A program made the translations under genes and the position numbers. DNA of 64,000 nucleotides from Escherichia coli (GTDB taxonomy: Bacteria > Pseudomonadota > Gammaproteobacteria > Enterobacterales > Enterobacteriaceae): NCBI RefSeq assembly GCF_024700885.2, contig NZ_CP117016.1; one strand, written 5' to 3'. Shown here piece by piece: positions 2,781 to 2,890 of the stretch. Each line of letters opens with the position of its first letter. Within the stretch, counting starts at the first letter, position 1. The notes under the pieces were generated by a model. It searched no databases and was not told where the DNA came from. It saw only the letters and a list, made by a program, of their open reading frames with translations.

Positions 2781-2890
2781 GCGCATGAGTGCATGTCTAT
2801 GGCGCATGAAAACGCATGAGTCTCATGCACCATTTTTGACGCGAAAGCCCTTGTGTGGTGGCTTCTGAGACGATTAATGAGGTGCATGAA
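2781..2890. promoter_or_regulatory. Array of CGCATGA / GCATGA direct repeats with about 10-21 bp phasing plus a 7-1-7 palindrome; candidate operator
   Basis: CGCATGA at 2782, 2803, 2813; GCATG at 2791; palindrome GCATGAG-T-CTCATGC at 2814-2828; GCATGA at 2884. Helical-repeat spacing is typical of arrayed protein binding sites. Function unknown. Confidence 0.35.

What the first reader, a model, noticed from the sequence alone, without database searches (positions are those of the whole stretch)
2781..2890. Phased CGCATGA repeat array and GCATGAG-T-CTCATGC palindrome downstream of ogr
Three CGCATGA copies at 2782, 2803 and 2813 (spacing 21 and 10 bp), a perfect 7-1-7 palindrome and two further GCATG(A) copies occur within about 110 bp of intergenic DNA between the late-activator gene and the retron. 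The helical phasing suggests cooperative binding of a regulator. The overlapping 94-aa antisense ORF is probably an artefact of the repeats.
Basis: seen in the sequence. Interest (0 to 1): 0.4.

Follow-up and report, generated by a model that had tools for sequence, protein, structure and literature searches.

The report
Packaging (cos) site of P4-like satellite
The repeated GCATG motifs are real, but they are most likely not a gene-regulation site: they belong to the cos DNA-packaging signal that this P4-like satellite uses to be cut and packed into capsids by a P2-type helper phage's terminase, which is a known kind of feature.

Summary
In detail: CGCATGA lies at 2782, 2803 and 2813, the palindrome at 2814-2828, GCATG at 2791 and GCATGA at 2884. 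This clustering is far beyond chance.

The interpretation as a regulator-binding array is not supported. The region is the cos site of a P4-like satellite, downstream of sid, psu and delta and directly before the variable defence hotspot that holds the retron.

GCATGAAAACC at 2884 starts the counterpart of the 55-bp P2/P4 cos core. The G-rich cohesive-end region follows at about 2912-2935.

The upstream copies at 2791, 2804 and 2814 match three GCAT boxes found in every enterobacterial and Ralstonia P2-family cos examined, and in P4. Those boxes sit at fixed distances (-94/95, -82, -72) from the proximal box, in flanks that are otherwise unalignable. A Burkholderia phage has them at other offsets. 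Pseudomonas phage phiCTX has GCAG in place of GCAT at both the proximal and distal positions.

Among 28 distinct satellite sequences the three boxes are the only invariant runs besides a terminator T-tract. The 2782 copy and the right palindrome arm are poorly conserved. The antisense ORF is not conserved.

The boxes are most likely helper-terminase recognition sites; this is inferred, not shown. The feature is of a known kind, and its fine structure is of modest interest.

The parts
2434..2706 (+). delta/ogr late-activator gene. This is context: it is the last gene of the sid-psu-delta operon.
   Evidence: Pfam Ogr_Delta, E = 6.6e-16. RefSeq annotates it as an ogr/Delta-like zinc finger protein in the identical locus of E. 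coli strain 1190.
2728..2755 (+). Probable rho-independent terminator of the sid-psu-delta operon: a 9-bp stem, a 5-nt loop and a T-run.
   Evidence: Fold energy is -11 kcal/mol, z = -2.0. The inverted repeat is pair I13. The T-run at 2749-2753 is invariant in 28 homologues. Homologues carry CCCGGTccagTACCGGGATTTTTT at this position.
2782..2788 (+). Extra upstream CGCATGA copy, 101 nt before the proximal box. It is poorly conserved and probably accessory.
   Evidence: Position 2784 varies in 9 of 28 distinct satellite sequences. The copy is absent from satellite L048 and from the Fels-2-type helper phages.
2790..2795 (+). Distal box 1 (TGCATG). It corresponds to the -94/-95 box of P2-family cos sites.
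   Evidence: TGAGTGCAT (2786-2794) is invariant in 28 satellite sequences. GCAT lies 93 nt before the proximal box here and 94-95 nt before it in 13 of 18 P2-family cos sites.
2803..2812 (+). Distal box 2 (CGCATGAAAA). It corresponds to the -82 box and shares GCATGAAAAC with the proximal box.
   Evidence: GCATGAAAA (2804-2812) is invariant in 28 satellite sequences. GCAT lies exactly 82 nt before the proximal box in 17 of 18 P2-family cos sites, and 80 nt before it here.
2813..2819 (+). Distal box 3 (CGCATGA). It corresponds to the -72 box and forms the left arm of the palindrome.
   Evidence: CATGA (2815-2819) is invariant in 28 satellite sequences. GCAT lies exactly 72 nt before the proximal box in 17 of 18 P2-family cos sites, and 70 nt before it here.
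2822..2828 (-). Inverted copy (CTCATGC), the right arm of the 7-1-7 palindrome. It is specific to this satellite lineage and only partly conserved.
   Evidence: Positions 2822 and 2824 vary in 5 and 6 of 28 sequences. The copy is absent from Fels-2-type helper phages. The hairpin folds at only -6.7 kcal/mol, z = -1.4.
2829..2882 (.). Spacer between the distal boxes and the cos core. Its length is constrained but its sequence is poorly conserved.
   Evidence: The distance from distal boxes to proximal box is fixed in P2-family cos sites, while median pairwise identity in the spacer is 0.45.
2883..2937 (+). Counterpart of the 55-bp P2/P4 cos core. It starts with the proximal box TGCATGAAAACC (2883-2894) and ends with CGCACGT (family consensus CGCGCGC).
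   Evidence: Comparison with P2 and P4. The distance from the proximal GCAT to the YGCGCGC motif is 47 nt, as in P2, P4 and the Fels-2-type phages (my count on the sequences printed). The 55-bp core is described in Ziermann & Calendar 1990, as cited in PMC3931495, PMC5694545 and PMC9594776.
2912..2935 (.). Predicted cohesive-end and nicking region. The 19-nt overhang is either 2912-2930 (GGGAAGGCGTGCGGGGCTG, ungapped register, proximal box +28) or 2917-2935 (GGCGTGCGGGGCTGCGCAC, gapped alignment to GGCGAGGCGGGGAAAGCAC).
   Evidence: Alignment to the annotated cosL and cosR of P2. The exact nick positions cannot be determined from sequence alone.
2930..2938 (.). End of the conserved satellite backbone and start of the variable defence hotspot, which here holds the retron.
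   Evidence: Matches in 846 E. coli genomes stop at query positions 529-539, equal to window 2928-2938. IMG/VR homologues diverge after GGGGCTGC. Rousset et al. 2022 (PMC9122126) place the hotspot directly adjacent to cos.
2651..2935 (-). 94-aa antisense ORF. It is not a gene.
   Evidence: The start codon is absent and stops occur around codon 60 in most of the 28 homologues. It has no Pfam family. RefSeq does not annotate it.

Best explanation
Window 2782-2937 is the cos (cohesive-end) packaging site of a P4-like phage satellite. Its layout has three parts:
- Three direct GCATG boxes at 2791, 2804 and 2814.
- A spacer of about 65 bp.
- A proximal box, TGCATGAAAACC, at 2883, which opens the conserved core. 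That core contains the G-rich 19-nt cohesive-end sequence (about 2912-2935).

Proposed mechanism (inferred, not shown). During lytic growth of a P2-type helper, probably a Fels-2/RE-2010/500465-1-like member of the Peduoviridae, the helper's terminase recognises the boxes. The small subunit gpM most likely provides the sequence recognition. The protein assembles across the distal and proximal boxes and bends or wraps the spacer. This places the large subunit gpP on the nick site about 28 bp beyond the proximal box. The staggered cut leaves 19-nt 5' overhangs, and the satellite genome, with its retron cargo, is packaged into helper-made capsids.

The extra copy at 2782 and the inverted copy at 2822-2828 are lineage-specific additions of uncertain value.

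What is shown here: the identity of the region as cos, and the position-specific conservation of the boxes. What is inferred: which protein binds them, and how it acts.
For: 1. Context. The element is a P4-like satellite with int, alpha, sid, psu and delta. It is 100% identical over the 951-bp query (window 2400-3350) to E. coli strain 1190, where the element is integrated at a tRNA-Thr gene. The site lies just after psu and delta, and just before the point where homology among 846 E. coli genomes ends. That is where Rousset et al. 2022 place cos and the defence hotspot (PMC9122126).

2. Core similarity. TGCATGAAAACC...AAGCGGG..GGCGTGCGGGG..GCAC here compares with TGCATTAAAACC...AAGCGGGCG|GGCGAGGCGGGGAAAGCAC in P2 and P4.

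3. Similarity to phage cos regions. Window 2788-2927 is about 70% identical to the region of Peduoviridae 500465-1, RE-2010, Kp4845-2 and 813R9 that carries the conserved cos core. The match includes GTGCATGTCTATGCCGCATGAGATCGCATGA.

4. Portal-gene fossil. A degraded remnant of the 3' end of portal gene Q lies at about 3035-3187 on the minus strand, in the same arrangement as P2's cos-Q (tblastn E = 9e-12).

5. Invariant box positions. In 13 P2-type cos sites chosen only by similarity to the 63-nt core, GCAT at -82 and -72 from the proximal box is invariant. All 8 columns score 2.0 bits. The other 106 columns have a median of 0.45 bits, and the upstream flanks are only 29% identical pairwise. 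A third GCAT lies at -94/-95 in most sites. This holds from E. coli, Yersinia, Salmonella, Klebsiella and Enterobacter phages to Ralstonia phage RSY1.

6. Covariation. Pseudomonas phage phiCTX has GCAG instead of GCAT at -28, -99 and -109 from its GGCG. Proximal and distal boxes change together.

7. Conservation within the satellite family. Among 28 distinct sequences, the only invariant runs of 5 or more bases in the 176 bp of intergenic DNA outside the search anchor are the terminator T-run and the three boxes (Mann-Whitney p = 6e-6).

8. Flanks matter for packaging. Longer flanks around the P4 cos raised cosmid transduction from 1.7e-5 to 0.035 (PMC9594776). This is consistent with required elements outside the 55-bp core.
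Against: - No experiment available to me shows that terminase, or gpM in particular, binds GCAT boxes. The only dissection of the P2/P4 cos (Ziermann & Calendar 1990) could not be read.
- In this satellite family the distal boxes are 2 bp closer to the proximal box than in phages (-93/-80/-70 against -95/-82/-72). The core also aligns with P2 in two alternative registers, so the nick position is uncertain.
- The phiCTX covariation could also reflect a host factor, because the host differs.
- P2 itself has the old-gene transcript starts about 150 bp before the nick, so in some phages the boxes overlap promoter DNA.
- The conservation statistics treat related sequences and neighbouring columns as independent.
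Confidence: 0.75

Rival explanations
1. The repeats are operator sites for a transcriptional regulator (Ogr/Delta, another satellite protein, or a host factor), bound cooperatively to control expression of delta or of the downstream retron.
For: The repeats are clustered, partly spaced by about one helical turn (10 bp between 2804 and 2814), and include a palindrome. They lie between two transcription units. In P2 the old-tin transcript starts lie near the equivalent boxes.
Against: - The same boxes occur at fixed distances from the cohesive-end site in phages and satellites with unrelated neighbouring genes in either orientation.
- The cargo after cos differs in nearly every homologue while the boxes stay the same.
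- There is no TGT-N12-ACA dyad of the kind associated with Ogr/Delta-dependent late promoters (the motif is from my own knowledge; the search is).
- There is no sigma-70-like promoter in 2600-3600.
- The palindrome and the 2782 copy, on which the phasing argument rests, are the least conserved parts.
Confidence: 0.05
2. The boxes are cos accessory sites bound by a host DNA-bending or nucleoid protein rather than by terminase itself. This would resemble IHF at site I1 in lambda cosB. Terminase would contact only the 55-bp core.
For: - The fixed distance to the core suggests an architectural role.
- The phiCTX record annotates IHF sites and repeat regions near its cos.
- The GCAT-to-GCAG switch occurs in a phage of a different host genus.
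Against: - The proximal copy of the same motif is part of the core itself and changes together with the distal copies in phiCTX. This points to one protein reading both.
- Ralstonia (RSY1) and Burkholderia (vB_E188) phages keep GCAT despite having distant hosts.
- There is no IHF consensus in 2700-3000.
- I know of no enterobacterial nucleoid protein with a TGCAT consensus (own knowledge).
Confidence: 0.12
3. The palindrome GCATGAG-T-CTCATGC followed by ACCATTTTTG acts as a second rho-independent terminator. It would stop read-through from delta before cos and the cargo.
For: The terminator scan flags 2814-2828 plus its tail as the only terminator-like site in 2600-3600. Some right-arm variants (CTTATGC) would keep G-U pairing.
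Against: - The hairpin is weak (-6.7 kcal/mol, z = -1.4; 18 of 200 shuffles fold as well).
- The T-run is 3 nt away from the stem.
- A better terminator lies 70 bp upstream.
- The right arm is absent from helper-phage cos sites, which keep the left arm as a box.
- Some satellites break the pairing, for example CTAATGC in L046.
- This explanation does not account for the other four copies.
Confidence: 0.08
4. The repeats are a by-product of a real protein-coding gene on the minus strand, the 94-aa ORF at 2651-2935.
For: The ORF is open for 94 codons in the window. The frame stays open across about 55 codons of the conserved part in most homologues.
Against: - The start codon is GTG only in a minority of homologues; most have GCx at that position.
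- Most homologues have a stop near codon 60.
- The ORF overlaps the 3' end of delta and its terminator.
- It has no Pfam hit and no RefSeq annotation.
- Conservation is motif-like at the DNA level and extends to phages in which the frame is not preserved.
Confidence: 0.01

Closest known systems
cos site of bacteriophages P2 and P4 (55-bp conserved core, 19-nt 5' cohesive ends; Ziermann & Calendar 1990, cited in PMC3931495, PMC5694545, PMC9594776, PMC9122126)
   Same: - Position after psu and delta, next to the variable hotspot.
- A core that starts with TGCAT(T/G)AAAACC, followed by AAGCGGG, a G-rich GGCG.G.CGGGG block and YGCGCGC.
- 47 nt from the proximal GCAT to YGCGCGC.
- Three upstream GCAT boxes spaced 12-13 and 10 bp.
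- A portal gene (here a remnant) downstream.
   Different: - The core sequence is diverged. The cohesive end is not GGCGAGGCGGGGAAAGCAC, and the G-rich block is displaced by 5 nt or carries an indel.
- The boxes are of GCATG type rather than TGCAT(T).
- The distal boxes are 2 bp closer to the proximal box.
- There is an extra direct copy (2782) and an inverted copy (2822-2828).
- The inverted CATGCA immediately before the proximal box, common in phages, is absent.
cos regions of Fels-2-type Peduoviridae (Salmonella phage RE-2010, Escherichia phage 500465-1, Klebsiella phage Kp4845-2, Escherichia phage Cartapus)
   Same: About 70% identity over window 2788-2927. The distal module is nearly the same (GTGCATGTCTATGCCGCATGAGATCGCATGA), and the proximal box is GGTGCATGAAAACC. 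These are the likely cognate helpers.
   Different: The phages lack the 2782 copy and the palindrome's right arm. Their proximal box lies 28 nt before GGCGTGG, against 33 nt before GGCGTG in the satellite. Their cohesive-end sequence is GGCGTGGCGGGGATACGAG.
Bacteriophage lambda cosB (gpNu1 binding sites R3, R2, R1 with IHF site I1) next to cosN
   Same: The working analogy: several short repeats beside the nicking site, arranged to assemble the small terminase subunit and position the nuclease. This rests on established knowledge of lambda and was not tested here.
   Different: There is no sequence relationship. In lambda the R sites lie on the side of cosN that is packaged first, next to the terminase genes; here the boxes lie on the side away from the portal and terminase genes. 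No IHF consensus was found. Binding by gpM is unproven.
Helper cos/pac mimicry by other phage satellites (cos-type SaPIs and PICIs; PMC6092414, PMC6893505)
   Same: A satellite carries a copy of its helper's packaging signal, so that the helper's terminase packages the satellite.
   Different: These are different phage families and different sequences. The P4-type satellite encodes no terminase subunit of its own, and it redirects capsid size with Sid.

Membership tests
P2/P4-type cos packaging site | Location in a P4-like satellite downstream of the sid-delta-psu late operon, at the edge of the variable (defence) region | tested here: met
   Gene order is int..alpha..sid-psu-delta-[site]-retron. 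Homology with 846 E. coli genomes ends at window 2928-2938. PMC9122126 places cos and the hotspot at this position.
P2/P4-type cos packaging site | Conserved core of about 55 bp (TGCATTAAAACC ... AAGCGGGCG GGCGAGGCGGGGAAAGCAC YGCGCGC) | tested here: met
   The window has TGCATGAAAACC, GTGAAGCGGG, GGCGTGCGGGG and GCAC/CGCACGT with the same 47-nt frame. It is diverged, and blastn detects only the Fels-2-type phage cos regions, at about 70% identity.
P2/P4-type cos packaging site | Distal GCAT boxes at fixed distance upstream of the core. This feature was derived here; I did not find it described in the searchable literature. | tested here: met
   Boxes lie at -93, -80 and -70 here, against -94/95, -82 and -72 in 17 of 18 P2-family sites. 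That is a 2-bp offset.
P2/P4-type cos packaging site | Cleavage by helper terminase to give 19-nt 5' cohesive ends, and dependence of packaging or transduction on the site | not testable with these tools
   This needs sequencing of virion DNA ends and cosmid transduction assays.
P2/P4-type cos packaging site | Portal gene Q adjacent to cos on the cohesive-end side (a feature of the phage arrangement) | tested here: met
   A degraded remnant of the gpQ C-terminus lies at about 3035-3187 on the minus strand (tblastn E = 9e-12 against Fels-2 Q and 7e-6 against P2 Q).
Transcription-factor operator array / Ogr-Delta-dependent late promoter | TGT-N12-ACA dyad upstream of a weak sigma-70 promoter, and association with a particular regulated gene | tested here: not met
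   No dyad in 2700-3000. No promoter-like site in 2600-3600. The boxes are conserved regardless of which genes flank them.
Rho-independent terminator (the palindrome at 2814-2828) | A stable G+C-rich hairpin immediately followed by a U-run, conserved or compensated across homologues | tested here: inconclusive
   The consensus scan flags it. However, it folds at only -6.7 kcal/mol with z = -1.4. The right arm varies and is absent from helper phages.
Protein-coding gene (antisense 94-aa ORF) | An intact ORF with a start codon across homologues, and a family match | tested here: not met
   Start codon lost and stops present in most of the 28 homologues. No Pfam hit.

The most novel reading that the evidence does not exclude
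Peduoviridae phages and their P4-like satellites may share a bipartite terminase-recognition architecture that has not been explicitly described in the literature I could search. It would consist of three distal GCAT boxes at about -122, -110 and -100 from the nick, plus a proximal box at -28, all rigidly spaced. The box sequence would co-evolve between distal and proximal sites, as in phiCTX, where both are GCAG. The extra direct and inverted boxes in this satellite lineage could then be an adaptation to out-compete the helper's own cos for terminase. Ziermann & Calendar 1990 may already have noted the repeats; I could not check.
Probability: 0.3. Interest if true: 0.45.

Novelty: already known. 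Interest (0 to 1): 0.3.

Why it matters
This site makes the satellite, and the retron defence system it carries, transmissible. Whichever helper terminase reads these boxes determines which phages can spread the element. [quoted passage not shown] In practice, the box map indicates which flanking DNA P2/P4 cosmid vectors need for efficient packaging. It also gives a simple sequence signature (GCAT at -82 and -72 from TGCATKAAAACC) for locating cos in unannotated Peduoviridae prophages and satellites. As a discovery it is modest, because the feature is of a known kind.

Tried and rejected
- **First phage search.** blastn of window 2400-3350 against the phage collection at E <= 1e-5 found only the Fels-2 portal-gene remnant. 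The cos similarity appeared only with a shorter query and a relaxed E-value.
- **IMG/VR pattern scan.** The pattern TGCATKAAAACC-N10-30-AAGCGGG excluded P2-type sites, whose gap is 8 nt. It therefore returned only satellites of the window's subtype, plus three chance matches (L018/L045, L023, L028/L047).
- **First regex for the core.** It was too strict and failed on most sequences. It was replaced.
- **L031.** The sequence to the left of the array is replaced by a lambdoid tail-fibre gene J, and an IS5-family transposase gene follows the cos. I considered this as evidence for a functional left boundary of cos. I set it aside as a single illegitimate rearrangement.
- **L035.** The alpha gene is joined directly to the core. 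This is a deleted, probably defective satellite and is not informative.
- **Literature.** Ziermann & Calendar 1990 is not held. Searches for TGCAT plus cos, for P2-like cos direct repeats, and for cosmid papers, and one supplement search, gave no dissection of the distal region.
- **Motif searches.** IHF and Ogr/Delta dyad consensus searches were negative.
- **Rejected readings.** The antisense ORF as a gene. The palindrome as the main feature, since it is not conserved in helper phages.

Full report
**Observation**

- CGCATGA lies at 2782, 2803 and 2813.
- GCATG lies at 2791 and GCATGA at 2884.
- An inverted copy at 2823-2828 completes the perfect palindrome GCATGAG-T-CTCATGC at 2814-2828 (I23).

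GCATGA is not common in the window: 37 copies on both strands in 64 kb, against 50 expected from shuffles. Five copies in 107 bp is therefore far beyond chance. The Poisson probability is 7e-9, or about 4e-6 after correcting for position.

**Context**

Window 1-6000 is the right end of a P4-like satellite. The 951-bp query (window 2400-3350) is 100% identical to E. coli strain 1190. In that genome the element runs tRNA-Thr, int, alpha-type primase, sid-like, psu, ogr/delta, and then a retron of the St85 family.
- The delta gene is at 2434-2706 (Pfam Ogr_Delta).
- A hairpin with a T-run at 2728-2755 is the likely operon terminator (-11 kcal/mol).
- The retron msr RNA starts at 3296.

Homologous elements occur in 846 of 5426 complete E. 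coli genomes. In all but 22 of them the match stops at window 2928-2938. Rousset et al. [quoted passage not shown] De Sousa & Rocha say the same (PMC8628076).

**The region is the cos site**

P4 ends with ...TGCATTAAAACCGCCCCGCAAAGCGGGCG and begins with GGCGAGGCGGGGAAAGCAC CGCGCGC. P2 is almost identical. This is the published 55-bp core (PMC3931495, PMC5694545, PMC9594776).

The window reads GGTGCATGAAAACCAGTCTGTTAAGTGAAGCGGGAAGGCGTGCGGGGCTGCGCACGT from 2881. It has the same opening box, the same GTGAAGCGGG, a G-rich GGCG.G.CGGGG block, and the same 47-nt distance from the box to the (C/T)GCGCGC motif.

A relaxed blastn search found about 70% identity over window 2788-2927 with a second class of Peduoviridae: Escherichia phage 500465-1, Salmonella phage RE-2010, Klebsiella phage Kp4845-2 and phage 813R9. 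The matched region in these phages carries the same core. Cartapus matches only the box array.

Window positions of about 3035-3187 on the minus strand encode a decayed remnant of the last ~55 residues of portal protein gpQ (E = 9e-12 against Fels-2 Q, with an in-frame stop). This reproduces the cos-Q arrangement of P2.

The exact nick positions cannot be read from sequence. An ungapped register (proximal box +28) gives 2912-2930. A gapped alignment to the P2 overhang gives 2917-2935.

**What the repeats are**

The copy at 2884 is the opening box of the core. The upstream copies correspond to a module present in every enterobacterial and Ralstonia P2-family cos I examined, and in P4.
- Counting from the proximal GCAT, 17 of 18 sites have GCAT at exactly -82 and -72.
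- 13 of 18 have another GCAT at -94 or -95.
- The sites are P2, P4, 186, PSP3, five further E. coli phages, and one phage each from Yersinia, Enterobacter, Klebsiella, Salmonella and Ralstonia, plus four Fels-2-type phages.
- The exception is Burkholderia phage vB_E188, which has GCAT at -101 and -81.

In the 13 sites that were chosen without any reference to this distal region, the eight GCAT columns are invariant at 2.0 bits. The other 106 columns between -130 and -11 have a median of 0.45 bits. The upstream flank is 29% identical pairwise, which is close to the roughly 25% expected for unrelated sequence.

Pseudomonas phage phiCTX has no GCAT. It has GCAG at -28, -99 and -109 from its GGCG, so the proximal and distal boxes changed together. 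Its GenBank record annotates repeat regions across cos.

The window's boxes at 2791, 2804 and 2814 lie at -93, -80 and -70. The internal spacing is the same (13 and 10 bp), and the module sits 2 bp closer to the core.

**Conservation within the satellite lineage**

I compared 28 distinct sequences from IMG/VR and the window. In the 176 bp of intergenic DNA outside the search anchor, the only invariant runs of five or more bases are:
- the terminator T-run;
- TGAGTGCAT (2786-2794);
- GCATGAAAA (2804-2812);
- CATGA (2815-2819).

The Mann-Whitney test gives p = 6e-6. This treats columns and sequences as independent, which they are not, so the value is indicative only.

The most diverged satellite (L048) keeps GTGCATGTCTATGCTGCATGAAAACGCATGAGTCTCATGCA while its flanks change.

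By contrast, the first CGCATGA copy (2782) varies at its central C in 9 of 28 sequences. It is absent from L048 and from the helper phages. The right arm of the palindrome varies at two positions and is absent from the helper phages.

**Mechanism**

Shown:
- The site is cos.
- The boxes are position-specifically conserved across very distant relatives.
- The boxes co-vary with the proximal box.

Inferred: the boxes are read by the helper's terminase, most plausibly the small subunit gpM. The protein would assemble on distal and proximal boxes across a spacer of about 65-70 bp and place the nuclease (gpP) about 28 bp beyond the proximal box. This is analogous to gpNu1 on the R sites of lambda cosB (established knowledge of lambda, not tested here).

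One published result is consistent with elements outside the 55-bp core. Longer flanks around the P4 cos raised cosmid transduction from 1.7e-5 to 0.035 (PMC9594776). That study did not dissect the flanks.

A host architectural protein reading the distal boxes remains possible. I found no IHF consensus.

**Rivals**

- *Transcriptional operator.* This is contradicted by conservation that is independent of neighbouring genes. There is also no Ogr/Delta dyad and no promoter-like site.
- *Palindrome as terminator.* The scan flags it. But it is weak (-6.7 kcal/mol, z = -1.4) and not conserved in phages.
- *Antisense ORF as a gene.* It lacks its start codon and carries stops in most homologues. It has no family match.

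**Comparison with the known, and verdict**

This is a member of the P2/P4 family of cos sites, of the subtype closest to Fels-2-like Peduoviridae. It lies in a class of satellites whose cos-adjacent hotspot has been published.

I did not find the distal three-box module, its rigid spacing or the phiCTX covariation described in the literature I could search. I could not read the 1990 paper that dissected the site. I therefore rate the feature as already known in kind. The fine structure is a modestly interesting point that can be tested.

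Noticed in passing
window 3035-3187 (minus strand): Decayed remnant of the C-terminal ~55 residues of a P2-family portal protein gpQ, with an in-frame stop. It lies just beyond the satellite's cos and before the retron. This suggests the cos-proximal DNA was acquired from a P2-like phage by recombination at cos. Dodd & Egan 1996 reported retrons Ec67 and Ec86 next to the cos of a 186-like prophage (cited in PMC5694545).
   Followed up: partly
L064 (phiCTX NC_003278, 35100-35580): phiCTX has GCAG instead of GCAT at the proximal (-28) and distal (-99, -109) positions, plus extra GCAGAAA copies at -37 and -83. The record annotates repeat regions R3-R6 and IHF sites around cos.
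   Followed up: partly
L054-L062, L065-L070, about 38-22 nt before the proximal box: Many P2-family cos spacers carry a conserved palindrome of the form CGCCAG-NN-CTGGCG (consensus cgCcAg.gCTGGcGcgg). It is absent from P2 itself and from the window's satellite lineage. Its function is unknown.
   Followed up: no
L054-L058, L062, L065-L070, immediately before the proximal box: Most phage cos sites have an inverted CATGCA 8 nt before the proximal TGCAT, forming an inverted pair. The window's satellite lineage lacks it and instead has an inverted copy 59 nt upstream (window 2825-2828).
   Followed up: no
L031 (IMGVR_UViG_2541047958_000001), around 11450-12995: The cos array and core, identical to the window from about 2779 onward, are fused to a truncated lambdoid tail-fibre gene J. 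An IS5-family transposase gene follows. This is a rearranged chimera of a lambdoid prophage and the satellite's right end.
   Followed up: partly
L035 (IMGVR_UViG_2923272612_000005), 718-3260: A P4-like element in which the alpha primase gene is joined directly to the cos core, 11 nt before TGCATGAAAACC. It lacks sid, psu, delta and the distal boxes, and is presumably a defective derivative.
   Followed up: no
window 2765-2779: CCTGGCTGGCCTGAG, just upstream of the boxes, is nearly invariant in the satellite lineage (also CCCTGGCTGGCA in the diverged L048). It has no counterpart in P2, P4 or the helper phages. Unexplained.
   Followed up: no
L067 (Escherichia phage 500465-1), 1205-1522: The annotated 'DinI' CDS (105 codons, against 77 codons in RE-2010) reads into the distal cos boxes and stops at the TGA of GCATGA. 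This is probably an annotation or fusion artefact rather than coding use of the boxes.
   Followed up: no
window 3368-3486: Sub-threshold Rfam match to the sRNA STnc400 (53 bits against a gathering score of 80). It lies directly after the msr match (3296-3365) and overlaps the long inverted repeat of the retron msd region.
   Followed up: no
window 2912-2937 and satellite homologues: In the satellite lineage the G-rich block appears shifted 5 nt relative to P2-type sites, while the 47-nt frame from proximal box to CGCGCGC is kept. The last 4-5 nt of the gapped-register overhang vary between satellites (GCAC, CCGC, GCGC, GCTC, TTCG). It is therefore unclear whether terminase cuts by measured distance or by local sequence.
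   Followed up: partly
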